Shown piece after piece: positions 4,497 to 19,328 of a stretch of DNA of 19,328 nt; positions within the stretch are counted from its first letter, which is position 1; the number at the start of each line of letters is the position of its first letter. Source of the stretch: Gemmatimonadota bacterium (GTDB lineage: Bacteria; Gemmatimonadota; Gemmatimonadetes; Gemmatimonadales; GWC2-71-9); the NCBI GenBank assembly GCA_039589275.1, contig JBDHHP010000070.1, forward strand, positions 1-19,328. The letters are read 5' to 3'. Below the pieces are notes generated by a model. The model was not told the DNA's origin and searched no databases. It saw only the letters and a program-made list of their open reading frames with translations. Both the position numbers and the translations under genes were made by a program.

Positions 4497-7481
4497 ATGC
4501 CTGACCTGCTGGAGCGTCTCAAAGCTGCGTTGGCTGACCGCTACGCCATCGAGCGGGAACTCGGTAGCGGTGGGATGGCCACGGTGTACCTCGCCGAGGA
4601 CCTGAAGCTGCACCGCAAGGTTGCGGTAAAGGTCCTAAGACCCGAACTCGCTGCTGCGCTTGGGCCTGACCGATTCCTGCAAGAGATCGAGATCGCGGCC
4701 CAACTGCACCATCCCCACATCCTACCGCTACACGACTCGGGTGACGCAGACGGGTTCCTGTATTACGTGATGCCTTATGAGGAGGGGCATTCACTTCGTG
4801 AGAAGTTGGCGCACGAGGGTGAGCTACCCATTGGTGAAGCCGTCAGAATCCTGAGGGACATAGTGGACGCTCTCGATCACGCCCACAAGCACAATGTAGT
4901 TCACAGGGACATCAAGCCGGACAACGTTCTGTTGACGGAGCGCCATGCTCTGGTGACCGACTTCGGCGTTGCCAAGGCCGTGAGCGAAGCCACCGGAAGG
5001 CAGCAGCTCACAACTGAAGGCGTGGCACTCGGCACACCAACCTATATGGCACCGGAGCAAGCCTCGGCCGACCCGCACATCGACCATCGGGTCGATATCT
5101 ACGCCGTCGGTGCCGTCGCATACGAGTTGCTCACCGGCAGACCGCCGTTCACTGGCACAACGCAGCAGGAGATACTGGCAGCACACATGACGCAGGCTCC
5201 GGAGCCCGTGACCAAGTATCGGGAGTCGGTGCCTCCTGCACTTGAGCAATTGGTGATAAGGTGCCTGGAGAAGAAGGCCGCTGATAGGTGGCAGAGTGCT
5301 GAGGAGCTGCTGCCGCAACTGGAAGCACTGACAACGCCGAGCGGCGGCGTAACACCGACTGAGACCAGACCGGTTTCCGCCACGCGCGCTCCTATGAGCC
5401 CGAAGACACGTACGGCCGCAGTAGCTGCTGTGGTTGTGGTCGGCGCAGTTGCTGCCTGGCTCCTACTGCTGCAGCCGTCCGGACCCGCCGCACCGAGACT
5501 CGATCCCAACGCCTTGGCCGTGTTGCCTTTCAGGATCACTGGCGACTCAGGTCTGATATACCTGCGGGAAGGCATGGTCGACGCACTCCACGCCAAGTTC
5601 ACCGGAGAAGGTGGACCGCGCGCAGTGGACCCGAGAACGACGATGAGCGCCTGGCGCGAGACGATTGAGGACGAGTCAGAAGACCTGCCACTCGACGAAT
5701 CGGTGCGGCTTGCGGGCCAACTCGGAGCGGGCCTGGTCCTGCTAGGAGGGATTGTCGAGGCAGGGAACCAGCTCACGTTGAGCGGATCTCTGCATGACGT
5801 TCCTGGTGGGGCAGAATTGGTGCAGGCCTCGGTCGCCGGCGCGGGTGACAGCCTGTCGGCCTTGATGGACCGTTTGGTGGTGCAGCTCCTCAGCCTGGAG
5901 GCGGGGGAGACCGCCGCGAGCGTCCAGACACTGAGCGGTTCGCTCGATGCGGTCCGCGCATATCTGGAAGGCCAGCGGGCCCTGCGCACCGGTTTCCCGC
6001 TGGAAGCTGTAAGGCACTTCGACCGGGCGATCGAGCTGGACTCATCCTTTGCCTTGGCGGCTGTGGGGCTTGCACGAGCCGGGTCGTTTGCGGGCAACAC
6101 CAACACCGACGCTGGGGGCCGGGGTGCGCGGCTCGCGTGGGAGTTGCGCGATCAACTGAGCGGCAGGGACCGTGCCCTGGTTACCGCTTGGCGGGGGCGG
6201 AACACACCTGGTTGGACCTCATGGGTAGATCGCATCCAAGATGCTGAGGTGGCAGTAGAGCTGGCACCCGACGACCCGGTCACCTGGAGCATGCTCGGAG
6301 GGCTACGTTCTCGTCTTGGGATATACCTCGGTGATTCGGCTGAGATCAGACGTGGCCTCGGTGCTCTGGATCGCGCGTTGGAGCTGGATTCGAGTCAGAT
6401 CGACGTGCTTTGGATGAGAGTGGACCGTGCCATGAGGTTGGGCGACACAGCGGTGGTCCGCGGATTGGGGCCGAGGCTCGTGGCAGCCGATTCGGCCACG
6501 GACTCGAGCGCGCTTACGCGATGGCAGATCGGAAGAGCGCTGAGTGATTCGCTAGAGATTGAACGTGCCCGGCAGGAGTTCGGCCGATCCCAACGCGAGG
6601 TCACGATCATAGGGTACCGCACGGCCGATGAGGGCTTACCGTACGACGATTGGGAGCTGTCGCTGGAACGGTTCGAAGCACAGGCCGTGACCGACAGGGC
6701 CCGGCAGCAGGCCATGGAACAGCACCGTAAGTTGGCCGGACTCAAGGGACAGCCCAGCAGGGAGATCGCCCTGGCTGACTCGCTCATTGAGATGGAGTTC
6801 TTCGAATGGTATATGGCCTCGTCTCACATCAGGCAGGCCATTTGGGGACCGGGCTACGACAGCGCCGCTGCGGAAAAGGCGGCTGTCTCCAAGTCATTCG
6901 CGCTGGATTCGAGCTGGACAGGTGTGAGCCAGTACTACGCTCTGTGTCCCTGGGGTGTGTGGGCAGCGTACCGGGGTGACGAGCGTGACGCCCGGGATGC
7001 CGTTGCGCTGATGGCGGAGATCGTAGCAAACGATGGCGCGAACCCCACTTGTCTGTACACCATAGAGGCCGTCCTCGAGACTGCGGGACCGGGTGGCGAG
7101 AGGCCGGCACTGGAACGACTCGATTCACTGATGCAGCTGGACGCGGGCCTCGGGTCATCACGTCTCAGGGGTGGACCAAGTTTCGGGGCGATGGCCAATT
7201 TCGCGGTAGCTCGCCTCCGAGAAGCTCAGGGCGACCTGCCGCGGGCTCTCGCCGCCGTCCGCCGTCGATGGATCGGGACGAACCCGGCCCAGCAGCAGTC
7301 GCTGCCGGCGTTCCTGCGAGAGGAAGGCCGGCTGGCGGCACTAGCCGGTGACACTGCAGGAGCGATCCGCGCCTACCAGCACTACCTTGTCCTGCGCACC
7401 GATCCGGAACCGACGGTACAGCCAGAGGTGGACGAGGTGCGACGAGCCCTAGCTCGGCTAATTGGGGAGCCCGGGCGCTAG
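4497..7481 (+). CDS. Serine/threonine protein kinase (PknB-type) with transmembrane segment and C-terminal TPR-like region (paralogue of upstream gene)
   Basis: VAVKVLRPELAAALGPDRF, HRDIKPDNVLLTERHALVTDFGVAKAVS, GTPTYMAPEQASAD; TM-like AAVAAVVVVGAVAAWLLLL; long helical C-terminus. Confidence 0.95.
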   Translation: MPDLLERLKAALADRYAIERELGSGGMATVYLAEDLKLHRKVAVKVLRPELAAALGPDRFLQEIEIAAQLHHPHILPLHDSGDADGFLYYVMPYEEGHSLREKLAHEGELPIGEAVRILRDIVDALDHAHKHNVVHRDIKPDNVLLTERHALVTDFGVAKAVSEATGRQQLTTEGVALGTPTYMAPEQASADPHIDHRVDIYAVGAVAYELLTGRPPFTGTTQQEILAAHMTQAPEPVTKYRESVPPALEQLVIRCLEKKAADRWQSAEELLPQLEALTTPSGGVTPTETRPVSATRAPMSPKTRTAAVAAVVVVGAVAAWLLLLQPSGPAAPRLDPNALAVLPFRITGDSGLIYLREGMVDALHAKFTGEGGPRAVDPRTTMSAWRETIEDESEDLPLDESVRLAGQLGAGLVLLGGIVEAGNQLTLSGSLHDVPGGAELVQASVAGAGDSLSALMDRLVVQLLSLEAGETAASVQTLSGSLDAVRAYLEGQRALRTGFPLEAVRHFDRAIELDSSFALAAVGLARAGSFAGNTNTDAGGRGARLAWELRDQLSGRDRALVTAWRGRNTPGWTSWVDRIQDAEVAVELAPDDPVTWSMLGGLRSRLGIYLGDSAEIRRGLGALDRALELDSSQIDVLWMRVDRAMRLGDTAVVRGLGPRLVAADSATDSSALTRWQIGRALSDSLEIERARQEFGRSQREVTIIGYRTADEGLPYDDWELSLERFEAQAVTDRARQQAMEQHRKLAGLKGQPSREIALADSLIEMEFFEWYMASSHIRQAIWGPGYDSAAAEKAAVSKSFALDSSWTGVSQYYALCPWGVWAAYRGDERDARDAVALMAEIVANDGANPTCLYTIEAVLETAGPGGERPALERLDSLMQLDAGLGSSRLRGGPSFGAMANFAVARLREAQGDLPRALAAVRRRWIGTNPAQQQSLPAFLREEGRLAALAGDTAGAIRAYQHYLVLRTDPEPTVQPEVDEVRRALARLIGEPGR

Positions 7482-7516
7482 AACAAACCAGGCCACATGA
7501 CCGGCCTCCTCCTACC

Positions 7517-7735
7517 GCGGCTTCCTCCCGTGCCCTCCGTGAGTCTCTCCCCGCGACATAGCTATCTCAATACACCCTGATATTCTTGAGGCCAAGGGAA
7601 GCCAACGGAGAGCGTCGGAGATACACTCGCTCGGCCGCCTGATGCTACCCGGTGTCTCGGAGCCCGAAGAAGGACCCGTCCGACCAGTCGCAGGAGTCCC
7701 TGACCTCCCCTCCGGTTCCGGCTGGATGGGAGGAT
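7517..7735. repeat. Leader repeat family copy downstream of kinase 2, with no kinase gene after it
   Basis: Aligns with 4231-4440 in several long exact blocks; followed by non-coding DNA instead of a kinase start. Confidence 0.75.
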
Positions 7736-8219
7736 ACCGTCGAGGGACTCGAACCCCGACACGCGGATTGTGATTATGGCACGTCGGGCGGACTCATCGT
7801 GACTCATCGTGACAAAACGGGAAGCCATAAGGCGTTATCGGATTGCTGGAACGCAACGTTTTCCCACTGAGTCACACTGAATGACGATCAGTACGGCACA
7901 CTGAAGGCACACTAGCCGAACTGCTCGCGTGAACTGGAAGCCAGAAGGGGAGGCCGGCCTCCCCTTCCCTTCTCTGGTTGACTCCCATCCCTGTCGTCAA
8001 GAACCTGACTCGATATCGAGCCACTGACTCGAACCCCGAACCTACTGATTAAGAGGCGGGCCAAGTCTTACATCATCTCGTTACATCTTGTTGTCAGCCT
8101 GCGAGCTCGTGTCGTCCGTCGTCGTACTTTGCACCCCTCGATGTAAGGCTTTGTAGGATCCAACTAACACAGGAACTGACACACCGCCGAGGCTACACCC
8201 TGTTCGCTTATTCCAATCC

Positions 8220-8882
8220 TCACACCTGCCGCAACACGGGCCCGAACCTATGAGTGTTCAGCATTTGAGCAAGGGTGAACGCGTCTTCTAGCGACAACAC
8301 GAACGTACCAGCATGTCGTTCGGTCCAGGTTCGGCCAGCCTCGGACGAGACCAGGAAGTAAACCTTGTGGCAGAAGCTCTTCATGGTCTCCGGTGCGGAC
8401 TGCTCGATGCGCAGCTCGTCCGGCAGTAAGAACGACACGACTGTCTCTATTGGCTCCACCGCCTCCACCCCACCTGGGGAAACCCGAAGCCGCACAGGTA
8501 AGTCTGTTTCCGGACAGGTCGACTCAACCTGCGCAGTCTTCCCTAGCAGCTCTGGTATGAACAGTGAGTCCCATGCGCACCAAGTGTAGAGCGTCTGACT
8601 GTTCACAATGAACTTGTGCGCCATCTCCACTACAGCCAGCCCGCCGAACCCAATAATCGCCTTCTGCTCGTCGTGGAACATCAGACAGCTCAGGGCGTCG
8701 CTATCGAGTACCTCATTCACTTCGCGGTCTGAAATATCCAAGGCTGACGCCAGTTGTTGGCGGTAAACCGGTGTTCCCTTTGCGAGTTCTCGGTAGAGAC
8801 CGAGTGCAACTGTCTGTTGACCTTCGTTTAGCTGTAGGTCAGCGGCTGAAAGCGGTGCAAAGATCTGTTCTAGATCGGGCAT
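8220..8882 (-). CDS. merB: Organomercurial (alkylmercury) lyase MerB
   Basis: YTWCAWDSLFIPELLGKTAQVESTCPETDLPVRLRVSPGGVEAVEP and SFCHKVYFL...W..RHAGTFVLSLEDAFTLAQMLN match MerB, including the catalytic Cys-Asp (WCAxD) and second catalytic Cys (SFC). AGGAGG upstream of the start. Confidence 0.93.
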   Translation of the reverse strand: MPDLEQIFAPLSAADLQLNEGQQTVALGLYRELAKGTPVYRQQLASALDISDREVNEVLDSDALSCLMFHDEQKAIIGFGGLAVVEMAHKFIVNSQTLYTWCAWDSLFIPELLGKTAQVESTCPETDLPVRLRVSPGGVEAVEPIETVVSFLLPDELRIEQSAPETMKSFCHKVYFLVSSEAGRTWTERHAGTFVLSLEDAFTLAQMLNTHRFGPVLRQV

Positions 8883-8891
8883 ATCTTGTCT

Positions 8892-9254
8892 CTACCTCCT
8901 GTCGCGCACCGTGGCTTCAAATCCTGTCATCCTCTCCAGTTCAGCAATGAACTGATCCGGCGTCGTCGCAGTCGAATCGAATGTCACCACCGCCTGTCCC
9001 GTCTCGTACGAAACGTCCGCACTCTCGACTCCATCAACTCGTCGTAGGGCCACACGGGCCGCTGCGGCACAGCCAGTTCACGTCATCCCGGTAACCAGGA
9101 GCGTCACGCTAGCGTAAGCCTCGGCTGCCATTTCCATGCTCATTGCGGACCCGTCGTCGTGTCCGGCCATGGCATCGTGATCGTGTCGCAGAAGTTGTGA
9201 CCCGACACCCACACCTATGACGGCTACGACGGCAACCCATTCGACTGTCTTCAT
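8892..9254 (-). CDS. merP: MerP-like periplasmic/membrane-anchored mercury-binding protein, predicted selenoprotein (UGA=Sec at codon 59, 9078-9080); not in the ORF track
   Basis: Minus-strand reading from ATG at 9254 (AAGGA upstream): MKTVEWVAVVAVIGVGVGSQLLRHDHDAMAGHDDGSAMSMEMAAEAYASVTLLVTGMT-U-TGCAAAARVALRRVDGVESADVSYETGQAVVTFDSTATTPDQFIAELERMTGFEATVRDRR, TAG at 8892-8894. Conserved HMA/MerP architecture on both sides of the UGA. Lies between merT and merB. Confidence 0.87.
9043..9066 (-). promoter_or_regulatory. Candidate bacterial SECIS-like stem-loop downstream of the merP UGA
   Basis: Minus-strand RNA CG-c-AG-c-GGCC-[CGUGU]-GGCC-CU-a-CG: 8 bp with one mismatch and one bulge. 5-nt apical loop with G at position 2, starting about 22 nt after the UGA. 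Confidence 0.6.
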
Positions 9255-9271
9255 TGTCTATTCCTTATCAC

Positions 9272-9613
9272 TCAGAGTACCCAGACTGACCATGTCGGAT
9301 AGGTGGCGAACAGCACGGCTACGCCCGTAGCGATCCACAGCATCGTCTTCATTCGTTGTCTCACTCTGGGTTCCGCGCATACCTTGCCGGGTTCACAGGC
9401 CTTCTGGTCCTCACGATGCAGAAGGAAGAACCCGAGGCCGAGAAACACGGCTGTGGCACCAAGGAGGTAGGGCCTGAGGGGCTCGAAGGTACTAGACAGC
9501 CCAGCGCCCGACACGCCCACTGCCACGGCAAGCAAGGGTCCTGCACAGCAAAGCGCGGATACAACGGCCGCAGCCACACCGGCGCCAGCGATTGCGACCG
9601 TCTTGCCAGTCAC
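9272..9613 (-). CDS. merT: Mercuric ion transporter MerT
   Basis: TM1 with vicinal cysteines (SALCCAGPLLAVAVGVSGAG), later Cys pair (KACEPGKVCA), three hydrophobic segments. GTG start overlaps the upstream stop (GTGA). Confidence 0.9.
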   Translation of the reverse strand: MTGKTVAIAGAGVAAAVVSALCCAGPLLAVAVGVSGAGLSSTFEPLRPYLLGATAVFLGLGFFLLHREDQKACEPGKVCAEPRVRQRMKTMLWIATGVAVLFATYPTWSVWVL

Positions 9614-9900
9614 ACTGCCTCCTCAATAGCAGCCCTTATTCCGTCGGCGGACGGCGTTCCATCCGCACGGCAGGCCGCGCCTCCCACACCCGCCTGGACA
9701 CCAGTCACGTCTCGACCGTTGACGAGGATGGTGGGTGATCCATGTTGCTTTACGTATTCCGGGACCTGTGGATCACCTTGCTCCCACTCCTGCCAGTCAG
9801 CGGATAGATCAAGGGCTGAGATAGCCTGCCGCAGGTTATTCCTAGCTGGCTCCGCGTTGGGACAGCCCTCGAAGTAGATCAGTTCAATCGTCGGGTTCAT
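9610..9900 (-). CDS. Small thioredoxin-fold-like protein in the mer operon
   Basis: IELIYFEGCPNAEPARNNLRQAI...VPEYVKQHGSPTILVNGRDVTG: beta-strand/CxN helix/SPTILVNG pattern typical of thioredoxin/glutaredoxin-like small proteins. GGAG upstream; 4-bp overlap with merT. Confidence 0.7.
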   Translation of the reverse strand: MNPTIELIYFEGCPNAEPARNNLRQAISALDLSADWQEWEQGDPQVPEYVKQHGSPTILVNGRDVTGVQAGVGGAACRADGTPSADGIRAAIEEAV

Positions 9901-9913
9901 AGTTGCGTCTCCA

Positions 9914-10312
9914 TTAGTCGGTCTCTAGCACCTCAAGAATGGGGCACTCTCCTGACGGTGCTCGCTTTGCGCAGTCCGCAGCGAGGGTGGCGAGTGCTTT
10001 CTTGATGCTTTCGAGTTCGCGGATCTTGGTTTCCACGAGCGCAATCTTTTGGCGTGCCTTCCGTTCCACAGCGCCACAAGCTCTAGGGGACCGTGCTCGC
10101 AACTCTAGCAGCTCCGCTATCTCAGACAGCGAGAATCCGAGATCTTGCGCCCGTTTGATGAACCGAATGCGGCGCACTGTGTCGGGTGAGTATTGCCGGT
10201 AACCCGATGGCGTCCGTTCCGGTTCGGCAATCAGACCGCGCCGCTCATAGAAGCGGACCGTCTCCACCTTGACCCGCGCCTGTTCCGCCAACTGTCCGAT
10301 GCGAAGTGCCAT
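9914..10312 (-). CDS. merR: MerR-type Hg-responsive transcriptional regulator
   Basis: MALRIGQLAEQARVKVETVRFYERRGLIAEPERTPSGYRQY HTH. Three cysteines in the MerR Hg-binding arrangement (RACG...ADCAKRAPSGECPIL). Start chosen at internal Met (10312); the ORF track extension to 10372 overlaps the promoter. Confidence 0.9.
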   Translation of the reverse strand: MALRIGQLAEQARVKVETVRFYERRGLIAEPERTPSGYRQYSPDTVRRIRFIKRAQDLGFSLSEIAELLELRARSPRACGAVERKARQKIALVETKIRELESIKKALATLAADCAKRAPSGECPILEVLETD

Positions 10313-10341
10313 TCCGCATCCCCTCTCCTTTACCATCAACA

Positions 10342-10372
10342 AGGTAAACCCCGTACCTAGGTACAGGGTCAA
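10342..10372 (-). promoter_or_regulatory. MerR-type promoter/operator for the merR-trx-merT-merP-merB operon
   Basis: Minus strand TTGACC-CTGTACCTAGGTACGGGGT-TTACCT: -35, 19-bp spacer, -10. The dyad ACCCcGTACCTAGGTACaGGGT spans 10348-10369, with perfect GTACCTAGGTAC at 10353-10364. Confidence 0.85.
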
Positions 10373-10565: not shown

Positions 10566-11675
10566 TTAGATGTGAGCTGTGCGACGTCCCAGTAGGTTCA
10601 TCCGGGTGCTGCGCACCGTTGCAGGCTCGACCACCCGTCCGTCACTGAAGCGGAAGCGAAGGGCATCATCTGGGCATTGGACCACGCACGCCCCACATCG
10701 AATGCACTTGCTCCGCCCGGCTAACTCGACTCGCCGCAACTTCCCGTTCATCTGCAATACACCGCGTGGGCACACCTGAACACATTCGCCGGATCCGCTA
10801 CACCGATTGTCTGCTAGCTCGACTTCGAACTCATTCCCAAGGGAGTTAACGCCGCCAGGATACCAGGGCGTCGTTCCCGTGAGATCCAGGGAGAGGACGG
10901 ACATACCGCCGACAGACACGATTGCCAGTGCGAGAAGGGATGCTCCGCCTAGCTCACCGAGCAAGGCCAAAGCGCCGATGCCGGTCGCGAACCCCAACAC
11001 GGCGGTGGCACCATAGGTCAGCAACCGTCCGCGTCCGGTTACGCTCACCCAGGGTAGCGCCGCAAAAACCGCCGAAACCATGAGAACAGACACCGCTGCC
11101 GCGACCAGTCCTGCATGCCAACCCACTGAGAATCCGACGGCCAGAACGGCGATCAACATCATCAGCACCGTCCAGACGAGTGCCATTTCCATCCGCTCCC
11201 AGAGCGGAAAGCGCATGAGGCGGTGTGCCTTCCTGACCCGCTGCCCCCGGTCAAGGAACTCCGGCAGATCTTCGAGTCGGGCCGGCCCCCACCTCGCTTC
11301 CCAACCCGTGGCCTCAGTGATCTTGCTCCTTTCGATGCCGCTGGCCGAGAGTTGCGGGAGCACTAGGCTCCTATGTCGCACGAGCTGACCAATCCCTGAG
11401 GCACGGATGGCCGCGATAACATCGTGGTGCGTGAGATGGCCTCCACCAGCCGCACACCAAACATTGATGCCGTTGCTGTTCGCCACGAGCAACCAAGCGT
11501 CGCGCCCGGTTAACGCCTGCTTCACCCTCCGAACAGTCAGTCTGAAGTTGCCGGTTACCAGTACCGGTGCACTAGGTCCTGGTCGACCGATGCGATCGAG
11601 GCCGTGCGGGGCAGCATGGGGAAACAGCCGCAGCACCGTGTCACGAAGCCATCCTGGGAACTCACGCGCTTTCAT
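10566..11675 (-). CDS. HgcAB-like fusion protein: HgcA-like corrinoid-binding/membrane region plus HgcB-like ferredoxin domain
   Basis: Cap-helix-like motif NVWCAAGGG (11439-11465), about 5 predicted TM segments (res. ~163-265), C-terminal CSGSGECVQVCP and CIRCGACVVQCP ferredoxin motifs. Confidence 0.82.
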   Translation of the reverse strand: MKAREFPGWLRDTVLRLFPHAAPHGLDRIGRPGPSAPVLVTGNFRLTVRRVKQALTGRDAWLLVANSNGINVWCAAGGGHLTHHDVIAAIRASGIGQLVRHRSLVLPQLSASGIERSKITEATGWEARWGPARLEDLPEFLDRGQRVRKAHRLMRFPLWERMEMALVWTVLMMLIAVLAVGFSVGWHAGLVAAAVSVLMVSAVFAALPWVSVTGRGRLLTYGATAVLGFATGIGALALLGELGGASLLALAIVSVGGMSVLSLDLTGTTPWYPGGVNSLGNEFEVELADNRCSGSGECVQVCPRGVLQMNGKLRRVELAGRSKCIRCGACVVQCPDDALRFRFSDGRVVEPATVRSTRMNLLGRRTAHI

Positions 11676-12336
11676 GCTGCTCCTCCTCTTTCACCCCGCT
11701 CACGATCGAGAACGCACCAGATGAAAGCCGCTCCTCCTCCACCGCCACGAATCCGGCCTCACTCAGCTGCTCTGCAAGACGCTGAACCGGTCGGGTGGTG
11801 GTCTGCGTCAACACGAACGTGAGCAGGGCGACTGGTAACCGACCTAACCGATACCAGAGGCGGCGTACACGAGTACGCGGTAACACCTCGTCAGCGATGA
11901 CGATCGTTCCTCCAGGTCGCAGTCGGGAGTACACGACGTTGAGTACGTAGGACTGCTCCTCGGGCGAGAGCTCACTGAAGGTGATACACGAGGTGACCGC
12001 GTCAAACGCATCCTTGGCAAATCTGTCTTCGATCTCCATTGCGCTGAGTTCGAGCCACTCCACGCTCCCAGCGGACGGGCAGCGCTTGCGTTGAGCTATT
12101 TCGAGCATACCGGGACTGATGTCGATCCCGACCACGTCGGCCCCACGAGCCGCGCAGGCAAGCGCAACGGCACCGGTTCCGCACCCAACGTCGAGCACGC
12201 GCTTCCCCCGCGCCGCCACCCGCTCCGCCAAGTGCTCATACACTCGGCCGATCTTGCCACGGGAGAGCATGCGAATTCCCCGATCGTACCGCGCCGGACT
12301 CGACTCCAGCAGCCTCATGTACAGGAACGTGCTCAC
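11662..12336 (-). CDS. Class I SAM-dependent methyltransferase associated with the corrinoid-like protein
   Basis: VLDVGCGTGAVALACAARGADVVGIDISPGMLEIAQ motif I/II and LRPGGTIVIADE. Likely GTG start at 12336 overlapping the tetR stop (TAGTG) rather than the 12444 start in the track; 14-bp overlap with the downstream fusion gene. Confidence 0.85.
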   Translation of the reverse strand: MSTFLYMRLLESSPARYDRGIRMLSRGKIGRVYEHLAERVAARGKRVLDVGCGTGAVALACAARGADVVGIDISPGMLEIAQRKRCPSAGSVEWLELSAMEIEDRFAKDAFDAVTSCITFSELSPEEQSYVLNVVYSRLRPGGTIVIADEVLPRTRVRRLWYRLGRLPVALLTFVLTQTTTRPVQRLAEQLSEAGFVAVEEERLSSGAFSIVSGVKEEEQHESA

Positions 12337-12956
12337 TAGACCTCTCCAACGGAGGGAGCACTGCGAGCAGCGCCGTCCAGAAACGTCGTCACCGCAACGT
12401 CGGGGATCTGCTCGAGCGGAGGCCACACTCCACCGGTGCCCCAATGCTGCACAAACATCAACGACAGGATGCCGACGAAAAGCACTGCGAGTTCCGGGAT
12501 CGGCCTGTCGCTCCGGATCTGTTTCGCCGCGATGCCTTCCTCTAGGATTTCTGAGACTTTGGTTACAAACGGAGTAAGATGCTCCAGAATCAGGGGGAAC
12601 GTCTCGGGACGAAAGCTCATCGCTTCCCGCACCAGCACTTTCATGAAGCCCTCTTCTTCCCGCAGCACAGCGACATCGGCCGCCGCCAGAGCCCGTAGTC
12701 GCTCCCGCACCGAATCACCTGCCTCGGCGGCGTCATAGCGCGCCACTGCTCGAAAACAGGCCTCCTCGATCACTGCCGCGAAGAGCCGCTCTTTGCTCTC
12801 GAAATAGTTGTAGAGCGTGCCCTTTGCGAATCCCGCAGCGAGCGAGATGGCGTCCACGTTGGCTCCGTCGAGACCGCGTTCGGCAAAGTGGGTCGCAGCA
12901 GTTTCCAGAAGGCGTTTTCTCACGCCCTCCTTCGCCCTAGCACTAATCCGTGGCAT
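12336..12956 (-). CDS. TetR/AcrR family transcriptional regulator
   Basis: N-terminal HTH: RLLETAATHFAERGLDGANVDAISLAAGFAKGTLYNYFESKERLFAAVIEEA. Confidence 0.93.
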   Translation of the reverse strand: MPRISARAKEGVRKRLLETAATHFAERGLDGANVDAISLAAGFAKGTLYNYFESKERLFAAVIEEACFRAVARYDAAEAGDSVRERLRALAAADVAVLREEEGFMKVLVREAMSFRPETFPLILEHLTPFVTKVSEILEEGIAAKQIRSDRPIPELAVLFVGILSLMFVQHWGTGGVWPPLEQIPDVAVTTFLDGAARSAPSVGEV

Positions 12957-12960
12957 GTGA

Positions 12961-12990
12961 TTATTGTGGGTGACCAGTCACCCATAATAA
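12961..12990. promoter_or_regulatory. Probable TetR operator (30-bp inverted repeat)
   Basis: TTATTgTGGGTGACcaGTCACCCAtAATAA: 8-bp perfect core arms around CA plus 5/6 paired flanks; overlaps the predicted -10/TSS. Confidence 0.8.
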
Positions 12991-13014
12991 TATTCCCGGC
13001 TGCTTCCATGTCAA
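12987..13014 (-). promoter_or_regulatory. Sigma70-like promoter of the tetR-methyltransferase-HgcAB-like operon
   Basis: Minus strand TTGACA (13009-13014) - 16 bp - TATTAT (12987-12992). Confidence 0.75.
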
Positions 13015-14514: not shown

Positions 14515-15430
14515 CCTTGCCATATGAACTGTATTTCGGGCTTGAAATTGGGGTGTTCAGGGATCCGATTGACCTAGTTTAAGTCAAGGGCCAGGGGCGC
14601 GTGGATTACCCCTGATTGGGGTCAAAACGCCCAACAGAAGGCCGCCGAGCTACTGCACGTTCCCTCCTCGCTTTAGGTCCAGGCGGCGCGGCTCTAGTTT
14701 AAGCGGCAAGTACGTGGCCCAGCCACGACGATCACGCCGCTAAGAAGCTAAACCCGGGCTCTGTCCCGCTTCACTACCCTCAGCACGCGGCGGATTCGAC
14801 TGTTTAAGCCACAATCGGCGTCTACTCCAATCCACCCCCAGGGCCCTCAAAAGGTCAAAGCACACCATCATCTGGGTGAACCAGACCTAAATCAGAGCAC
14901 GTCTTTCGTCGGCCATAGTGACAGACTGTCGCAACTCGCTGGACTACAAGTAACAGCGAATGGACTCTAAGTTGTTGTCGTTAATCGACTTAGCGAGTCC
15001 GCTCCACGCCGTATAATGAACATTATGTTAAGTAGACCCCTACCCGGGATCTCTATGGGGACCCCCCGATTCACCATCCCTAACATGGGACGCCTGGTCA
15101 AAAAGAGGCAGTTTTGAGGTCGGTATCTGAGTTCTACTGGTCTCGAATGGGGCCCCAATTGCAGAAGGGTCCCTCTAACCCCCGCTAGTCTGTACTTGGA
15201 GGCCGATTCACTTCCTGGACCCGGCTCACTGTTTTACGATGGGCTTCGAGGGGCTAGTTTTGCGCCTGTCGACAACACCACTGATTTGAGGCGGGCAATC
15301 ACTGACCCGTGACTGTTCAGCGATGCGGTACTCTACTCATGGCTTCTTGACCACTGCGGCAAACTCGTCCCCGGCAGTAGCCCCGTCCAAAAACTTGCGA
15401 AATGTCCTATGATACGACATATTGTCAGGC

Positions 15431-16147
15431 ATGAAGACATATCACGGCCGCTGGATCCAAATCGGCATCAACTTGCTGCTGGAGCGCAGCGCGCTGCCGG
15501 GAGCTGGGGTAAAACTCGCACGCAGGGTATTTGGCCTCACTCAGCAGCACGTGGCCGACATGATCGGTGTGACCACCAGGACGGTCAACCGATGGGAAGG
15601 TGGTGCCACGACCCCCAAGACGCGGGATCTCCATTACTTGGCTGATAAGCTGCACGAGTACACGGTCCGCGAACTGCTGAAAGTCGACGCCTGCGTCCGC
15701 GAGTTGAATACCAGCTACCATCTTTCCGACCCTTCGGAGGAAGAACAATTACGGGCCGGGATCGAAGCAAGCTTCGAGGATATCGACCGCCGGACCGCGA
15801 CACTGGCGAAGTTCGCTGTCTTCGGCCTGCATACCCCATTTCCGATCGAAACTCTCGCTGAGTTTTTCGGCTTACCAACCAGCATTCTCAAGGTTCTGCC
15901 GCTGTCAGATAGCCCAGAAGGAAAAATGACGCTAGCGGACATCGGCATTGCCATTGAAGCGAGAGTCCGAGGAGTAGATACAGCGAAGTTTGTTGAGCAA
16001 TACAGTGGCGTCGTGGGACTGGCCCTGCTCTATGGTCAGCAGCGCGCAAGGGGCGAACTGCTTGTGGCTTGGGATCACATCTACAGCGCTCTTGTCCGGC
16101 AGTTCCCGATCGCATTGGGAATCGCAGAGGAATCTCCTGAAAGGTGA
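15431..16147 (+). CDS. HTH (XRE/Cro-type) DNA-binding regulator
   Basis: GLTQQHVADMIGVTTRTVNRWEGGATTPKTRDLHYLADKL HTH; ATG at 15431 preferred over TTG at 15422. Confidence 0.7.
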   Translation: MKTYHGRWIQIGINLLLERSALPGAGVKLARRVFGLTQQHVADMIGVTTRTVNRWEGGATTPKTRDLHYLADKLHEYTVRELLKVDACVRELNTSYHLSDPSEEEQLRAGIEASFEDIDRRTATLAKFAVFGLHTPFPIETLAEFFGLPTSILKVLPLSDSPEGKMTLADIGIAIEARVRGVDTAKFVEQYSGVVGLALLYGQQRARGELLVAWDHIYSALVRQFPIALGIAEESPER

Positions 16148-16218
16148 CCTAACAGAACCCCGGCCGGTCGCGGCAACGACCAACCGGGGTCAACCGTCAA
16201 CCTACAACGGCTTAGCAG

Positions 16219-16476
16219 ATGCAGGATAACAAGAACGAATCAAAGAATCCATTCGAGCAGTACCCTGCCCTGGAATTGTGGTGGAAGCGACTCGCCGCAG
16301 GAGTCGGCGGGCAGGACCCTGACAGACCATCAACTTGGATACTGGACCGGCTTTGGAGAGCGGCGTGCTGCGAGGCGTCCGCAATGGAAGCAGCCGCCTT
16401 GGACCAGTCGAACGGCTGGCGCGCTGACATGTTAAGGGCACGCACATTGGCCTTACGTGGCGAGAGGGCCGCATGA
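16219..16476 (+). CDS. Small hypothetical protein co-transcribed with the DUF3987-like gene
   Basis: ATG; stop overlaps the next start (ATGA at 16473-16476). Confidence 0.55.
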   Translation: MQDNKNESKNPFEQYPALELWWKRLAAGVGGQDPDRPSTWILDRLWRAACCEASAMEAAALDQSNGWRADMLRARTLALRGERAA

Positions 16477-17828
16477 GTACCGCAGCCAAGTTCAGTTTGG
16501 AGAAGGAGACGGCCTACCGCCACGCACTTGCCGAGATGGTCAACTTCGACGGGGAAACCCCTCAGCCAGTAACTCGGAGCTGGCCCGAACCACTGGGTGA
16601 AGCCGCCTACTGTGGGTTCATCGGCGAGATGGTGAGGGAGATTGAACCGCACACGGAAGCGGACCCTGTGGCGATTATGTCCCAAGCCCTGGTGATGGCT
16701 GGTAATGCCATTGGGTCCAGACCCAACTTCCAGGTCGAGAACGACATCCACCGGGTGAACGAGTACACGCTGATTGTGGCTGACACCGCATCAGGCAGGA
16801 AAGGCGTATCGCGGAACCAGGCACAAGGGCCGATTGCTCAATCCAACCCCGACTGGTCTCAGCGCATCGTGAACGGCCTCACCAGTGGCGAGGGAGTCAT
16901 CCATGCAGTACGCGACCCGATCGAGAAGCTGGAGCCGATGCGCGATGGGAAGAACGGGCCGATAACCGACTACCAGACTGTCGTGGTGGATCCTGGCGTG
17001 GATGACAAGCGCCTCATGGTAGTAGAGACCGAGTTCGCCTCGGCAATCAAGAAGATGTCGTTGCCTGGAAACACCTTATCACCAGTCATACGCCGTGCGT
17101 GGGACGGTGGGACTGAACCACTTACCACCCTGGCAAAGACGGCACATGAGAGGGCCACGGGAGCCCACATATCAATCATCGGCCACATCACGGCGTACGA
17201 GCTACAACACCGCATTGAGTCCACGGAGTTGGCGAACGGCTTTCTGAATCGGTTCTTGCTGGTGTGCGCCAAGCGCAGCAAGACGCTCCCAGATGGTGGC
17301 AACCTCTCCGAAGGCACCCGCACAGTGATGGCGAGCGCCATGGGCAAGGTTCTCAGCCGTGCTGCACAGGTGGACCGTATGGAACGCGACAAAGACGCAC
17401 GCGACCTGTGGCACGATGTGTACGCTGACCTCTCAGAACAAGTGGACGGTCTGGTCGGTGCCGTGATGGCAAGGGCCGAAGCACACGTTCTTCGGCTGTC
17501 GATGCTGTACGCTCTGCTGGATGAGAGTGCGGTCATCTGCCAACCTCACTTGGAGGCAGCACTCGAGTTCTGGAGGTACTGCAAACAGTCAGCCGAACAC
17601 TTGTTTGGGGATGTTGTAGGCGACCCTGACGTTGACCGGCTTATGAAAGCACTTCACAAGAATGGCGGCAAGATGGCCAAGACGGAGGTGTCTGCCCTCT
17701 ACAGCCGAAACAAGAAGACTGATCCGATTATCGACCGCGCCACAACGAAGGGACTGGTCGTGGTCGAAAAGGAACACACGAGCAGTCCCGGCCGGAACCC
17801 AGAGTACGTGCGACTCACGGGCAATTAA
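16473..17828 (+). CDS. DUF3987-like protein (mobile-element/plasmid type replication-associated)
   Basis: ADPVAIMSQALVMAGNAIGSRPNFQVENDIHRVNEYTLIVADTASGRKGVSRNQA (Walker A-like SGRKGVS), and central/C-terminal features (NRFLLVCAKRSKTLPDGG) as in DUF3987 proteins. Confidence 0.75.
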   Translation: MSTAAKFSLEKETAYRHALAEMVNFDGETPQPVTRSWPEPLGEAAYCGFIGEMVREIEPHTEADPVAIMSQALVMAGNAIGSRPNFQVENDIHRVNEYTLIVADTASGRKGVSRNQAQGPIAQSNPDWSQRIVNGLTSGEGVIHAVRDPIEKLEPMRDGKNGPITDYQTVVVDPGVDDKRLMVVETEFASAIKKMSLPGNTLSPVIRRAWDGGTEPLTTLAKTAHERATGAHISIIGHITAYELQHRIESTELANGFLNRFLLVCAKRSKTLPDGGNLSEGTRTVMASAMGKVLSRAAQVDRMERDKDARDLWHDVYADLSEQVDGLVGAVMARAEAHVLRLSMLYALLDESAVICQPHLEAALEFWRYCKQSAEHLFGDVVGDPDVDRLMKALHKNGGKMAKTEVSALYSRNKKTDPIIDRATTKGLVVVEKEHTSSPGRNPEYVRLTGN

Positions 17829-17852
17829 TTCGTTTAGTTCGTTTTTTTCGTA
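17824..17852 (+). repeat. TTCGTTT-rich 29-mer (right copy)
   Basis: ATTAATTCGTTTAGTTCGTTTTTTTCGTA, 12 bp upstream of the excisionase-like start. Confidence 0.75.
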
Positions 17853-17863
17853 GCCTCGGGGAA

Positions 17864-18160
17864 ATGAAGCAACACCTGGACCTGATAGCCGAGTTGAACG
17901 ACTGCTACAAGCAGCGGGTTGAACTGGACGCCCGCATCGCGGCGGCAATGGCTTCGGTCCTTAAAGGACTAGCCGAAGCCTACGGGAACACGAGCGAATC
18001 CGACGACGAATGGCTGACGGTCAAAGAGGTCGCAAAGGCTATGAAATGCTCAACCGATTACGTCTACGAACACAAGGAGACCTGGCCTTTCGCATACAAG
18101 GCCTGTGGGCGCTGGAAGTTCTCCAAGAACGGCCTTAGGCGCTGGATGGATGTACGGTGA
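17864..18160 (+). CDS. Excisionase/helix-turn-helix DNA-binding protein
   Basis: DEWLTVKEVAKAMKCSTDYVYEHKETWPFAYKACGRWKFSKNGLRRWMD: MerR-like/excisionase HTH immediately upstream of the integrase. Confidence 0.8.
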   Translation: MKQHLDLIAELNDCYKQRVELDARIAAAMASVLKGLAEAYGNTSESDDEWLTVKEVAKAMKCSTDYVYEHKETWPFAYKACGRWKFSKNGLRRWMDVR

Positions 18161-18188
18161 ACCTGTCACCCTCAAGGAGGGGGGCTGC

Positions 18189-19328
18189 ATGACCACTCGA
18201 AGGAGGCGTGACCACGGAACGGGACATATCTACCGGCGTGGTGGTGTGTGGTGGATTCAGACCCGATTCCACGGGAAGCGACACCGAGAATCGTCTCATT
18301 CAACCAAGAAGGGAGATGCCGTCAAGCTCTTGAAGCAACGGATAGCGGAACAGACGGATGGGACATTCAACCCGCGGGCCCAAGACGTGACGTTCGGTGA
18401 ACTGGCCGCCATGCTGCGGACCAACTACCGGATCAACGGCCGACGATCCAAGCGGCGTGCCGAATTGTCAATCCGACACCTGGAAGACGTCTTCGGCCAG
18501 GACAAGGCTGTGAACATCACTTATGACCGCCTGGAGAAGTACATCGAGTATCGGGCCGACGAAGGCGCGGCCCCGGCATCAATCCAGAACGAACTGGCAG
18601 CGCTGAAGTTCATGTTCAGCCTCGCAGTGAAGGCCAGGAAGTTGAACCAGAAACCCGCCTTTCCGACTGTGAAGGTCACTAACGCACGGGACGTGTTCTT
18701 CGATGATTGGGAGTTCGCGGCGTTGAAGAAGGAACTGCCGGACTACCTGAAGGGGTTAGCCGAATTCAGTTACCTGACTGGGTGGCGCATCAATTCGGAG
18801 CTTCTAGGTCTAGATGAAGGCCACCAGCCGCTGGAGTGGAACCAGGTACACTTCCAGGCTGGCGTCGTGACGCTGAAGGTGGGTACCACGAAGAACGACG
18901 AAGGCCGAACATTCCCGTTCGATGTGCTTCCCGAGTTGAAGGACATTCTGGCCCGCCAGCGAGGCTACACCGACCACTGGTCCAAGATCACCGGTAAGGT
19001 TGTCCCCTTGGTCTTCCACCGTCGCGGAGAACCCATCAAGAATTTCAGGCGTGCCTGGATGTCCGCCTGCAAGCGCGCAGACCTTGGCCGGAAGATCCCA
19101 CACGACTTCCGCAGAACCGCCGTCCGGAATCTCGAGCGGGCCGGTGTGCCCCGGTCTGTGGCAAAGAAGCTGGTAGGCCACAAGACCGACTCGATGTACA
19201 ACCGGTACGCAATCGCCAACGAGAAAGACCTACGGGAAGGCGTCCAGAAGCTTGCCGAGCTTCGCCAGGGCAAACAGGATGAAGCACCGAGAGTGTTAGC
19301 GATCGGTGGGGGAGGGAATCACGAGTGA
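18189..19328 (+). CDS. Tyrosine recombinase / integrase
   Basis: MTTRRRRDHGTGHIYRRGGVWWIQTRFHGKRHRES N-terminus; catalytic region YLTGWRINSELLGL ... HDFRRTAVRNLERAGVPRSVAKKLVGHKTDSMYNRY. Internal Met start preferred. Confidence 0.93.
   Translation: MTTRRRRDHGTGHIYRRGGVWWIQTRFHGKRHRESSHSTKKGDAVKLLKQRIAEQTDGTFNPRAQDVTFGELAAMLRTNYRINGRRSKRRAELSIRHLEDVFGQDKAVNITYDRLEKYIEYRADEGAAPASIQNELAALKFMFSLAVKARKLNQKPAFPTVKVTNARDVFFDDWEFAALKKELPDYLKGLAEFSYLTGWRINSELLGLDEGHQPLEWNQVHFQAGVVTLKVGTTKNDEGRTFPFDVLPELKDILARQRGYTDHWSKITGKVVPLVFHRRGEPIKNFRRAWMSACKRADLGRKIPHDFRRTAVRNLERAGVPRSVAKKLVGHKTDSMYNRYAIANEKDLREGVQKLAELRQGKQDEAPRVLAIGGGGNHE

What the first reader, a model, noticed from the sequence alone, without database searches (positions are those of the whole stretch)
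10566..11675. HgcAB-like fusion protein beside organomercury detoxification genes
The protein has an HgcA-type cap-helix motif (NVWCAAGGG versus the N(V/I)WCA(A/G)GK of HgcA), a multi-TM segment, and an HgcB-like ferredoxin domain in one chain. HgcA/HgcB are the corrinoid and ferredoxin proteins required for mercury methylation. A fused variant next to merB and a MeHg-type operon raises the possibility of corrinoid-mediated Hg methyl transfer or demethylation. I recall HgcAB-like fusions and an associated methyltransferase being named in protein family databases, but I know of no experimentally established function.
Basis: partly seen in the sequence, partly recalled or inferred. Interest (0 to 1): 0.82.

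Follow-up and report, generated by a model that had tools for sequence, protein, structure and literature searches.

The report
HgcAB-like corrinoid cassette beside mer genes
The gene is a real member of the known but functionally uncharacterised "fused HgcAB-like" corrinoid protein family, which travels almost everywhere with its own SAM methyltransferase, and its position next to mercury-detoxification genes here is a local peculiarity of one small lineage rather than a general link to mercury.

Summary
Window 10566-11675 (-) encodes a 369-aa HgcAB-like fusion protein (NCBIfam NF043039, 388 bits against a cutoff of 285). It has the NVWCAAGGG cap helix, four predicted TM helices and a C-terminal ferredoxin domain. 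The gene upstream overlaps it and encodes CpaM (NF043040).

The suggested mercury link is not supported as a general property. Across 174 related loci, CpaM is adjacent or fused in 160 (9 others are cut by contig ends). A conserved TetR with its operator accompanies 33 loci. MerB occurs in only one locus, the nearest relative, and MerT in none. The only MerR hit is weak (19.7 bits, L120) and looks like a generic family match. The closest MerB relatives sit in other contexts.

In the window the two units have separate regulators and promoters, TetR operator versus MerR operator, and lie on a lower-GC island that carries an integrase. The protein lacks the HgcB cysteines needed for Hg methylation and fails the HgcA and HgcB cutoffs. 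Cultured carriers of fused HgcAB do not methylate Hg.

Most likely mechanism: a self-contained membrane methyl relay, SAM to CpaM to Cys-ligated corrinoid (reduced by the fused ferredoxin) to an unknown acceptor. It is a known family, so this is a new member with moderate interest.

The parts
12960..13014 (-). Sigma-70-like promoter (TTGACA-16-TATTAT, 13014..12987) overlapped by a 15-nt-arm palindrome (12960-12991; minus strand ATTATTATGGGTGAC-TG-GTCACCCACAATAAT). This is the putative TetR operator.
   Evidence: The core GGGTGAC-NN-GTCACCC lies 29-51 nt upstream of tetR in 15 loci from several phyla and occurs nowhere else in the 1.27 Mb surveyed.
12336..12956 (-). TetR-family regulator, the first gene of the cassette.
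   Evidence: Pfam TetR_N 50.8 bits. Orthologues of 50-63% identity, and 88% in L013, lie directly upstream of cpaM in 33 of 174 loci.
11662..12318 (-). cpaM, the corrinoid protein-associated class I SAM methyltransferase. The likely start is the Met at 12318. The longer ORF from 12444 overlaps tetR.
   Evidence: NF043040 278.6 bits against a cutoff of 180. LDxGCGTG and other motifs are invariant in 77 sequences. The gene is adjacent or fused to the corrinoid gene in 160 of 174 loci.
10566..11675 (-). HgcAB-like fusion protein, 369 aa. Its start overlaps the cpaM stop by 14 nt.
   Evidence: NF043039 388 bits against a cutoff of 285. More than 1400 homologues were found, in at least 559 species genomes.
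11241..11621 (-). Corrinoid-binding domain (residues 19-145). The cap helix N71-G79 (nt 11439-11465) carries the invariant Cys74.
   Evidence: Pfam CdhD. [quoted passage not shown] Cys74 is present in 81 of 81 sequences.
10884..11204 (-). Membrane domain of four predicted TM helices (residues 158-183, 186-205, 216-239, 244-264).
   Evidence: Hydropathy analysis and the AlphaFold2 model, pLDDT above 90 in this region.
10650..10823 (-). Ferredoxin domain (residues 285-342). The motifs are C292-x5-C298-x3-C302-P and C324-xx-C327-xx-C330-xxx-C334-P, giving seven Cys, with no Cys downstream.
10341..10372 (-). MerR-type promoter/operator: TTGACC (10372..10367), a 19/20-nt spacer containing the dyad ACCCTGTACCT|AGGTACGGGGT (10348-10369), then TTACCT/TACCTT.
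   Evidence: Sequence read; inverted repeat I1. The resemblance to the Tn501 merO layout rests on my own knowledge.
9914..10312 (-). merR (true start ATG at 10312, preceded by AAGGAG), with three Cys in the Hg-type pattern.
   Evidence: TIGR02051 141.5 bits against a cutoff of 150.85; Pfam MerR_1 and MerR-DNA-bind; sequence read.
9610..9900 (-). DF-family (seleno)protein homologue, here with Cys. It is a regular partner of this MerB clade.
   Evidence: NF049942 46.9 bits. It lies directly upstream of merB in L176 (89% identity) and L177 (70%).
9272..9613 (-). merT.
   Evidence: Pfam MerT 72.3 bits against a cutoff of 32.9.
8892..9254 (-). MerP/HMA-like gene with an in-frame TGA (9078-9080) at the first Cys of GMTCxxC. 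It is a candidate selenoprotein with an N-terminal membrane anchor.
   Evidence: Translation. With C substituted for U: NF041115 'metal-binding (seleno)protein' 80.6 bits and MerP TIGR02052 54.3 bits.
8220..8882 (-). merB (organomercurial lyase family).
   Evidence: Pfam MerB 101 bits against a cutoff of 27; NF009710 178.7 bits against a cutoff of 193.
15422..19328 (+). Mobile-element genes: an HTH regulator, a DUF3987 protein, an HTH_17/excisionase-like gene, and a tyrosine integrase cut by the window end.
   Evidence: GC is 0.55-0.62 from about 7500 to the right end, against 0.63-0.65 to the left.

Best explanation
tetR-cpaM-hgcAB-like is a self-contained, horizontally mobile cassette that encodes a membrane-anchored methyl relay.

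Proposed steps:
1. A TetR-family repressor sits on a conserved palindrome over the promoter until an unknown ligand releases it.
2. CpaM binds SAM and methylates the cob(I)amide held by the N-terminal CFeSP-like domain of the fusion protein.
3. Cys74 of the cap helix becomes the lower axial thiolate ligand of the methyl-Co(III) state, as shown for true HgcA.
4. The fused C-terminal ferredoxin domain supplies the electrons that regenerate Co(I).
5. The methyl group is passed to an unidentified acceptor at the cytoplasmic face of the membrane.

The acceptor is probably not Hg(II) delivered as in HgcAB, because the Hg-handling cysteines of HgcB are absent.

The mer operon beside the cassette (merR, DF, merT, merP-like, merB) is a separate, MerR-controlled unit. 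It came to lie next to the cassette on a lower-GC island in one Gemmatimonadota lineage.

Shown here: family membership, domain anatomy, CpaM synteny and fusion, the TetR operator, separate promoters, and the absence of mer genes near relatives. Inferred: the direction of methyl flow, the role of CpaM as loader, and the nature of the acceptor.
For: - Membership: NF043039 at 388 bits against 285, and NF043040 at 278.6 against 180.
- Synteny: CpaM lies directly upstream on the same strand in 134 loci and is in the same polypeptide in 26, out of 174. Nine more loci are cut by contig ends. The triple fusion is confirmed by Pfam on L140, with Methyltransf at 2-146, CdhD at 251-369 and Fer4 at 530-581.
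- Coupling: the cpaM stop and the hgcAB-like start overlap by 14 nt.
- Regulation: the TetR palindrome GGGTGAC-NN-GTCACCC is found only upstream of tetR, in 15 loci across several phyla.
- Neighbours: 139 downstream and 130 upstream neighbour genes show no recurring family.
- Mer genes near relatives: MerB only in L013, MerT in none, MerR one weak hit in L120 at 19.7 bits.
- Separate MerR-type promoter between the two units.
- L001 kept the cassette after deleting the mer genes at a GCCG microhomology.
- The MerB clade occurs elsewhere without the cassette.
- Cys74 is invariant, and no Cys follows the last cluster Cys in 80 of 81 sequences.
- Literature: SAM is the methyl donor of true HgcAB, with Cys-thiolate ligation (PMC11588087). 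HgcB Cys73 and the C-terminal Cys are needed for Hg methylation (PMC7305189). Fused-HgcAB organisms do not make MeHg (PMC4646819, PMC10087281).
Against: - No biochemical data exist for any member of the family.
- Purified true HgcAB uses SAM without an extra methyltransferase (PMC11588087), so CpaM could have another role.
- merB is adjacent in two related genomes and a mer remnant survives in a third, so the adjacency is ancestral to a small clade. It could have been kept by selection.
- In L013 merB follows the hgcAB-like gene by 116 nt with no merR or recognisable promoter, so it may be co-transcribed with the cassette.
- No terminator was detected between the hgcAB-like gene and merR in the window, so read-through is possible.
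- A few other loci carry metal-handling neighbours: P-type ATPase in 10 of 174, DUF302 in 3, ArsR in 3. One is a Thermococcus locus flanked by ArsR and an HMA-type ATPase.
- The non-methylating organisms carry a clade only 34-39% identical to this protein.
Confidence: 0.6

Rival explanations
1. The adjacency is functional. In this lineage the corrinoid cassette acts on mercury species. It would either methylate Hg(II) or MeHg using SAM, or use Co(I) to take the methyl group from MeHg. It would work together with MerT, MerP and MerB in an operon that lacks merA.
For: - The cassette and merB are adjacent in the window and in L013. L001 retains a merP remnant directly after the hgcAB-like stop.
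- In L013 merB has no regulator of its own.
- No merA is present in the window.
- The protein keeps the HgcA cap-helix Cys, and true HgcAB uses SAM (PMC11588087).
Against: - 171 of 174 related loci have no mer gene or remnant nearby, apart from one weak generic MerR-family hit in L120.
- L001-L012 keep an intact cassette without mer genes.
- MerB relatives of 88, 80 and 69% identity lie elsewhere.
- The units have separate regulators and promoters.
- The HgcB Cys73 and C-terminal Cys are absent.
- HgcA and HgcB scores are far below cutoffs.
- Tested fused-HgcAB organisms do not methylate Hg (PMC10087281).
- merB is 69% identical at nucleotide level between the window and L013, against 87% for the cassette.
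Confidence: 0.08
2. CpaM is the terminal methyltransferase rather than the loader. In one version it methylates a small molecule or metalloid with SAM, as ArsM or UbiE do, while the corrinoid/ferredoxin protein supplies electrons or substrate. In the other, methyl flows in the opposite direction, from a methylated substrate through the corrinoid.
For: - After its own family, CpaM's best family matches are UbiE/MenG and ArsM-type enzymes at 48-60 bits.
- True HgcAB needs no separate methyltransferase to use SAM (PMC11588087).
- The presence of a TetR regulator fits small-molecule detoxification.
Against: - CpaM scores far below the cutoffs of UbiE, MenG and ArsM.
- Only Cys46 and Cys55 are conserved, with Cys111 at 84%, so no ArsM-like cysteine set is evident.
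- Recurrent fusion of CpaM to the N-terminus of the corrinoid domain, next to the cofactor-binding module, fits direct methyl transfer to cobalt.
- Class I SAM methyltransferases are not known to run in reverse (my own knowledge).
Confidence: 0.15
3. The fusion protein performs corrinoid chemistry unrelated to methyl transfer, such as reductive chemistry at the membrane. On this view CpaM is only a conserved neighbour.
For: - The membrane anchor plus ferredoxin plus corrinoid arrangement recalls respiratory corrinoid enzymes in outline (my own knowledge).
- No activity has ever been shown for the family (PMC10087281).
Against: - The corrinoid domain is of the CFeSP/HgcA methyl-carrier type.
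- About 97% synteny, together with covalent fusion to a SAM methyltransferase, argues for methyl chemistry.
Confidence: 0.04

Closest known systems
HgcAB-like fusion protein family (NCBIfam NF043039; the 'fused HgcAB' of Podar et al. 2015, e.g. Pyrococcus furiosus Q8U2U9, Kosmotoga pacifica, Methanococcoides methylutens)
   Same: Both are single chains with a CFeSP-type corrinoid domain, a GINVWC cap helix, a membrane domain and a C-terminal dicluster-type ferredoxin. A CpaM-like methyltransferase lies directly upstream in both (window; L173 Methanococcoides, L174 Thermococcus).
   Different: The window protein belongs to a separate subclade, only 34-39% identical to the thermophile and methanogen proteins. 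This subclade is found mainly in Gemmatimonadota, Myxococcota, Acidobacteriota, Actinomycetota and Alphaproteobacteria. It has a shorter TM2-TM3 loop, and the second Cys of the first Fe-S motif is always missing. About a third of the window-clade loci surveyed carry a TetR and its operator.
HgcA/HgcB mercury methylation system (Parks et al. 2013; Zheng et al. 2024, PMC11588087)
   Same: Shared features are the corrinoid-binding domain with a cap-helix Cys, the membrane anchor, a ferredoxin partner, and SAM as the likely methyl source.
   Different: - Scores are below family cutoffs: 162 vs 275 for HgcA, 49.9 vs 99 for HgcB.
- The cap motif ends GGG instead of GK.
- There are four predicted TM helices rather than five.
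- The ferredoxin is fused, has seven cluster Cys, and lacks Cys73 and the C-terminal Cys.
- A dedicated class I SAM methyltransferase is present.
- Tested carriers of the fused type make no MeHg.
Corrinoid iron-sulfur protein large subunit (AcsC/CdhE) of the Wood-Ljungdahl pathway
   Same: The C-terminal B12-binding Rossmann-like domain is homologous (2h9a_A residues 317-442, E 5e-13).
   Different: The window protein has no N-terminal [4Fe-4S] domain, no TIM-barrel domain and no small subunit. Cys replaces the non-ligating residue in the cap helix. It is membrane-bound, and its partner is a SAM methyltransferase rather than a methyl-folate methyltransferase.
Methionine synthase reactivation (MetH activation domain plus flavodoxin)
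   Same: The logic is the same: an electron donor reduces cobalt and SAM supplies the methyl group to cob(I)/(II)alamin.
   Different: The protein folds are unrelated. In MetH this is a repair route, whereas here it would be the main route. This comparison rests on my own knowledge and was not tested.

Membership tests
HgcAB-like fusion protein (NF043039) | Whole-protein score above the curated cutoff (285 bits) | tested here: met
   388 bits, aligned over residues 9-340 of the protein and positions 3-350 of the 350-position profile.
HgcAB-like fusion protein (NF043039) | One chain with a corrinoid domain carrying a cap-helix Cys, a membrane domain and a ferredoxin domain | tested here: met
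   CdhD at 19-138; NVWCAAGGG at 71-79; four TM helices at 158-264; Fer4 at 288-344.
HgcAB-like fusion protein (NF043039) | Partnered with the CpaM methyltransferase | tested here: met
   CpaM (NF043040, 278.6 bits against 180) overlaps the start by 14 nt. The same arrangement or a fusion is found in 160 of 174 loci.
HgcA, mercury methylation corrinoid protein (NF040863) | Score above the curated cutoff (275 bits) | tested here: not met
   162.2 bits.
HgcA, mercury methylation corrinoid protein (NF040863) | Cap-helix motif N(V/I)WC(A/S)(A/G)GK with the strictly conserved Cys | tested here: inconclusive
   The Cys and NVWCAAG are present, but the motif ends GG instead of K. The accepted motifs in PMC10087281 all end in GK.
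HgcA, mercury methylation corrinoid protein (NF040863) | C-terminal domain of five TM helices | tested here: not met
   Four helices are predicted, followed by a cytoplasmic ferredoxin domain. The five-helix count is from PMC7305189.
HgcA, mercury methylation corrinoid protein (NF040863) | Methylates Hg(II) | not testable with these tools
   Only literature on other fused proteins is available: no MeHg from P. furiosus or M. methylutens (PMC4646819, PMC10087281).
HgcB, mercury methylation ferredoxin (NF040864) | Score above the cutoff (99 bits) and two CxxCxxCxxxCP motifs | tested here: not met
   49.9 bits. The first motif is C-x5-C-x3-CP in 81 of 81 clade members.
HgcB, mercury methylation ferredoxin (NF040864) | Conserved Cys about 12 residues after the second motif (Cys73), and Cys at the C-terminus | tested here: not met
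   No Cys follows C334 in the window protein or in 80 of 81 relatives, nor in the Kosmotoga, Thermococcus, Methanococcoides or triple-fusion sequences.
CFeSP large subunit (AcsC/CdhE) | N-terminal [4Fe-4S] domain and TIM barrel preceding the B12 domain | tested here: not met
   Only the last ~125 residues of CFeSP align (2h9a_A 317-442). The window protein starts at that domain.
CpaM (NF043040) | Score above the cutoff (180 bits), with a class I SAM-binding motif | tested here: met
   278.6 bits. LDxGCGTG is invariant in 77 sequences.
mer operon (organomercurial resistance) | MerR with its operator, transport genes and MerB | tested here: met
   MerR, MerT and MerB pass Pfam cutoffs. A MerR-type dyad promoter is present, as is a MerP-like HMA gene. 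NCBIfam equivalog cutoffs are narrowly missed.
mer operon (organomercurial resistance) | MerA mercuric reductase | tested here: not met
   No ORF in the window matches a pyridine nucleotide-disulfide oxidoreductase. It may lie elsewhere in the genome.

The most novel reading that the evidence does not exclude
The cassette is a SAM- and corrinoid-dependent methylase for a soft metal or metalloid, which could include Hg species under conditions not yet tested. It would be recruited repeatedly into metal-handling islands. In this Gemmatimonadota lineage it would work with MerT, MerP and MerB as a methylation/demethylation or organometal-processing pair in aerobic bacteria.
Probability: 0.1. Interest if true: 0.85.

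Novelty: new member of a known kind. Interest (0 to 1): 0.42.

Why it matters
Fused HgcAB-like genes are routinely picked up in surveys for mercury methylators. They are then either set aside or counted with caution, because nobody knows what they do.

This work shows three things about the family:
- It is far more widespread than the literature implies. It is found in at least 559 species genomes, many from phyla better known (from my own knowledge, not tested here) for aerobic members.
- It is an autonomous cassette with its own SAM methyltransferase, which is sometimes covalently fused to it.
- It often carries a conserved TetR switch.

SAM was recently shown to be the methyl donor of true HgcAB. 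Together with that, these results give a concrete, testable biochemical model and point to a cultured carrier, Allgaiera indica DSM 24802.

The results also caution against reading the local merB adjacency as evidence of mercury chemistry.

Tried and rejected
- An exact-sequence look-up of the window protein found no contig on record. The same was true for Kosmotoga P0131.
- tblastn against 72,556 plasmids gave no match, so no plasmid-borne examples could be examined.
- The afdb50 fold library was unavailable. No other fold search was run, because sequence profiles already placed the domains.
- A SECIS-like hairpin after the in-frame TGA of the merP-like gene was not better than shuffled sequence (z = 0.07). 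The selenoprotein reading therefore rests on the motif position and family match only.
- My simple GC3-based gene caller missed many cpaM genes. Synteny counts were taken instead from tblastn and phmmer on six-frame ORFs.
- I considered whether the missing second Cys of the first Fe-S motif marks a SAM-binding, site-differentiated cluster. I rejected this as a family feature, because the Thermococcus and triple-fusion proteins have the full motif.
- I looked for a general metal theme among neighbours. P-type ATPase occurs in 10 of 174 loci, DUF302 in 3 and ArsR in 3. This is too weak to build on.
Full report
**Observation**

The ORF at 10566..11675 (minus strand, 369 aa, ATG start) is real. 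It scores 388 bits against NCBIfam NF043039 'HgcAB-like fusion protein' (cutoff 285). It scores only 162 bits against true HgcA (cutoff 275) and 49.9 against HgcB (cutoff 99). Pfam places a CdhD-type corrinoid domain at residues 19-138 and 4Fe-4S dicluster domains at 288-344.

The string NVWCAAGGG occupies residues 71-79. A hydrophobic block at 158-264 is modelled by AlphaFold2 as four helices with pLDDT above 90. The overall model has mean pLDDT 74, and both the cap helix and the ferredoxin domain are of low confidence. The closest solved relative is the C-terminal B12 domain of the CFeSP large subunit (2h9a_A, E 5e-13). No HgcA structure is in the PDB copy.

**Gene map around the ORF, all on the minus strand**

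| Feature | Coordinates | Evidence |
|---|---|---|
| TetR-family regulator | 12956..12336 | |
| CpaM, 'corrinoid protein-associated methyltransferase' | most likely 12318..11662 | NF043040, 278.6 bits vs 180 |
| HgcAB-like gene | 11675..10566 | start overlaps the cpaM stop by 14 nt |
| Non-coding gap | 194 bp to the ORF's TTG at 10372; 253 bp to the merR ATG at 10312 | |
| merR | 10312..9914 | |
| DF-family gene | 9900..9610 | |
| merT | 9613..9272 | |
| MerP/HMA-like gene | 9254..8892 | |
| merB | 8882..8220 | |

No merA is present in the window.

To the right lie an HTH regulator, a DUF3987 protein, an excisionase-like HTH gene and a tyrosine integrase cut by the window end. GC content is 0.55-0.62 from about 7500 to the right end, against 0.63-0.65 over the two Ser/Thr kinase genes on the left. 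The cassette and the mer genes therefore appear to share a horizontally acquired island.

**Two transcription units**

A sigma-70-like promoter lies upstream of tetR (TTGACA-16-TATTAT, 13014..12987). It is overlapped by a palindrome with 15-nt arms at 12960-12991.

Between the hgcAB-like stop and merR there is a different, MerR-type promoter. It reads TTGACC, then a 19/20-nt spacer containing the dyad ACCCTGTACCT|AGGTACGGGGT (10348-10369), then TTACCT. MerR carries three cysteines in the spacing expected of Hg-responsive MerR; this is a reading of the sequence and rests on my own knowledge. No terminator was detected between the units, so read-through cannot be excluded.

**How general is the mercury link?**

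I collected 174 loci encoding relatives:
- 12 from exact-protein look-ups of 71-86% identical proteins;
- 80 from one genome per species (at least 559 species carry a relative, the closest being a Gemmatimonadota MAG at 86%);
- 80 from metagenomes, down to 28% identity;
- 2 from isolates or MAGs of the literature clade.

Results of tblastn and phmmer with the window proteins against six-frame ORFs:
- CpaM is directly upstream on the same strand in 134 loci and in the same polypeptide in 26.
- Nine further loci are cut by a contig end.
- Only five loci have room upstream but no CpaM. Four of these are the most distant relatives.
- The TetR orthologue is present in 33 loci.
- MerB is present in one locus (L013, the closest genome). 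MerT and the DF protein are in none.
- MerR gives a single weak hit in L120 (19.7 bits, E 2e-4 to 9e-4), which looks like a generic MerR-family match.

A Pfam census covered the two nearest genes on each side in about 77 species loci, 139 downstream and 130 upstream genes. No family occurred more than four times.

From the MerB side, relatives of 88, 80 and 69% identity lie in three other contexts without the cassette. They are usually preceded by the same DF-family gene.

**History of the local adjacency**

L013 aligns with the window over tetR-cpaM-hgcAB-like at 87% nucleotide identity. It then jumps directly to merB at 69%, lacking merR, DF, merT and merP.

L001-L005 are 86% identical in the fusion protein and have no mer genes. 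They retain 66 bp of the 3' end of the merP-like gene immediately after the hgcAB-like stop, with a GCCG microhomology at the junction. The window-like arrangement is thus probably ancestral to a small clade and has since decayed, while the cassette stayed intact. Other close relatives (L006-L012) have unrelated neighbours.

It is met apart from these nearest relatives.

**What the cassette is**

Three observations tie CpaM to the corrinoid protein:
- about 97% synteny where it can be assessed;
- overlapping stop and start codons;
- 26 natural triple fusions of about 590 aa. Pfam on L140 gives Methyltransf at 2-146, CdhD at 251-369 and Fer4 at 530-581.

The TetR palindrome core GGGTGAC-NN-GTCACCC occurs 29-51 nt upstream of tetR in 15 loci and nowhere else in 1.27 Mb. 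A looser scan finds it in about 19 of 24 tetR loci. These loci come from Acidobacteriota, Myxococcota/'delta proteobacteria', Gemmatimonadota, Actinomycetota, Planctomycetota and the cultured alphaproteobacterium Allgaiera indica. This is a conserved operator, so about a third of the window-clade cassettes surveyed are ligand-switched.

CpaM has an invariant LDxGCGTG SAM motif and no evident ArsM-like cysteine set.

**Comparison with true HgcAB**

The literature defines the two proteins as follows (PMC7305189, PMC11588087):
- HgcA has the cap helix with a strictly conserved Cys and five TM helices.
- HgcB has two CxxCxxCxxxCP motifs, a strictly conserved Cys73 about 12 residues after the second motif, and C-terminal cysteines. 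Cys73 and at least one C-terminal Cys are needed for Hg methylation.

The window protein keeps the cap-helix Cys, which is present in 81 of 81 relatives. It differs in these respects:
- It has four TM helices, which places both soluble domains on the same side of the membrane.
- Its first Fe-S motif is C-x5-C-x3-CP in all 81 clade members.
- No Cys follows the last cluster Cys in 80 of 81 sequences. The same is true in the Kosmotoga, Thermococcus, Methanococcoides and triple-fusion proteins.

The organisms reported not to methylate Hg are P. furiosus and M. methylutens (PMC4646819, PMC10087281). They carry a clade that is 34-39% identical to the window protein. That clade also has a CpaM-like gene directly upstream.

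**Mechanism proposed**

SAM is now known to methylate cob(I)-HgcA, giving a Cys-ligated methyl-cob(III) (PMC11588087). The most economical reading of the cassette is a methyl relay:
1. CpaM loads the methyl group from SAM.
2. The fused ferredoxin regenerates Co(I).
3. Cys74 ligates the methyl-Co(III) state.
4. The methyl group goes to an unknown acceptor at the membrane surface.

The acceptor is probably not Hg(II) handled as in HgcAB, because the thiol relay is missing. The first three steps are inferred by homology and gene linkage. The acceptor is unknown.

**Rivals**

- The cassette acts on mercury species together with the neighbouring mer genes (about 0.08).
- CpaM is the terminal enzyme, or methyl flows in reverse (about 0.15).
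- The protein performs non-methyl corrinoid chemistry (about 0.04).

A weak metal theme keeps the first rival alive. P-type ATPases lie within 10 kb in 10 of 174 loci, DUF302 in 3 and ArsR in 3. One Thermococcus locus reads ArsR, HMA-ATPase, PEMT-like, CpaM, HgcAB-like, unknown, DUF302, ATPase.

**Novelty and verdict**

The family has been described since 2015 and named in NCBIfam together with CpaM. No function is known, and I found no paper that discusses CpaM. The window adds a new member in an unusual local context.

The by-products of this check may be of more use than the mer adjacency itself:
- the breadth of the family;
- the CpaM fusions;
- the TetR operator;
- the missing HgcB cysteines;
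- the availability of a cultured carrier.

Noticed in passing
window 8892-9254 (-), TGA at 9078-9080: The MerP/HMA-like gene between merT and merB has an in-frame TGA exactly at the first Cys of the GMTCxxC metal-binding motif, giving GMT-U-TGC. With C substituted it matches NF041115 'metal-binding (seleno)protein' at 80.6 bits and MerP at 54.3 bits. It is probably a selenocysteine-containing mercury-binding protein with an N-terminal membrane anchor. The downstream hairpin is not better than shuffled sequence.
   Followed up: partly
window 9610-9900 (-); L176 6672-6962; L177 6714-7004: A 96-aa DF-family protein with an EGCP motif sits in the mer operon. Its orthologues (89% and 70% identity) lie directly upstream of merB in two other contexts. 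DF-MerB therefore looks like a recurring pair in this MerB clade.
   Followed up: partly
window 8220-10372: The mer unit has merR, DF, merT, merP-like and merB, but no merA is found anywhere in the 19-kb window.
   Followed up: partly
window 12960-12991; 15 other loci, e.g. L048, L051, L076: A conserved palindrome, ATGGGTGAC-N2-GTCACCCAT, lies 29-51 nt upstream of the cassette's tetR gene in distant phyla. It was absent elsewhere in the 1.27 Mb surveyed.
   Followed up: yes
L134-L172 (26 loci), e.g. L140 5281-7035: Single polypeptides of about 590 aa join CpaM, the HgcA-like corrinoid domain, the TM domain and a ferredoxin domain. In these the ferredoxin has two complete CxxCxxCxxxCP motifs, and the cap helix reads NVWCASCGG.
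   Followed up: partly
L174 (Thermococcus argininiproducens CP080572.1, 251934-261076): In this isolate the cassette is embedded in metal-handling genes: ArsR-type regulator, HMA-domain P-type ATPase, PEMT/ICMT-like membrane methyltransferase, CpaM, HgcAB-like, unknown 298-aa protein, DUF302, and a second P-type ATPase.
   Followed up: partly
L001 10798-10869 versus window 10557 and 8961-8896: A relative without mer genes keeps a 66-bp remnant of the merP-like 3' end directly after the hgcAB-like stop. The deletion junction sits at a GCCG microhomology.
   Followed up: yes
window 15422-19328 (+) and 7482-8219: An integrase, an excisionase-like HTH gene, a DUF3987 protein and an HTH regulator lie at the right end, and about 740 bp to the left of merB has no convincing gene. 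GC is lower from about 7500 onward. The island boundaries and attachment site were not located, and no tRNA is present in the window.
   Followed up: partly
window 1912-4227 and 4497-7481 (+): Two large paralogous Ser/Thr protein kinases with TPR-rich C-terminal regions lie side by side. Similar kinases occur near the cassette in the related contigs L001 and L009.
   Followed up: no
L013 3587-4177 (-): In the closest genome, an AbiEii-type toxin gene (type IV toxin-antitoxin system) lies just beyond merB. This fits a mobile or accessory region.
   Followed up: no
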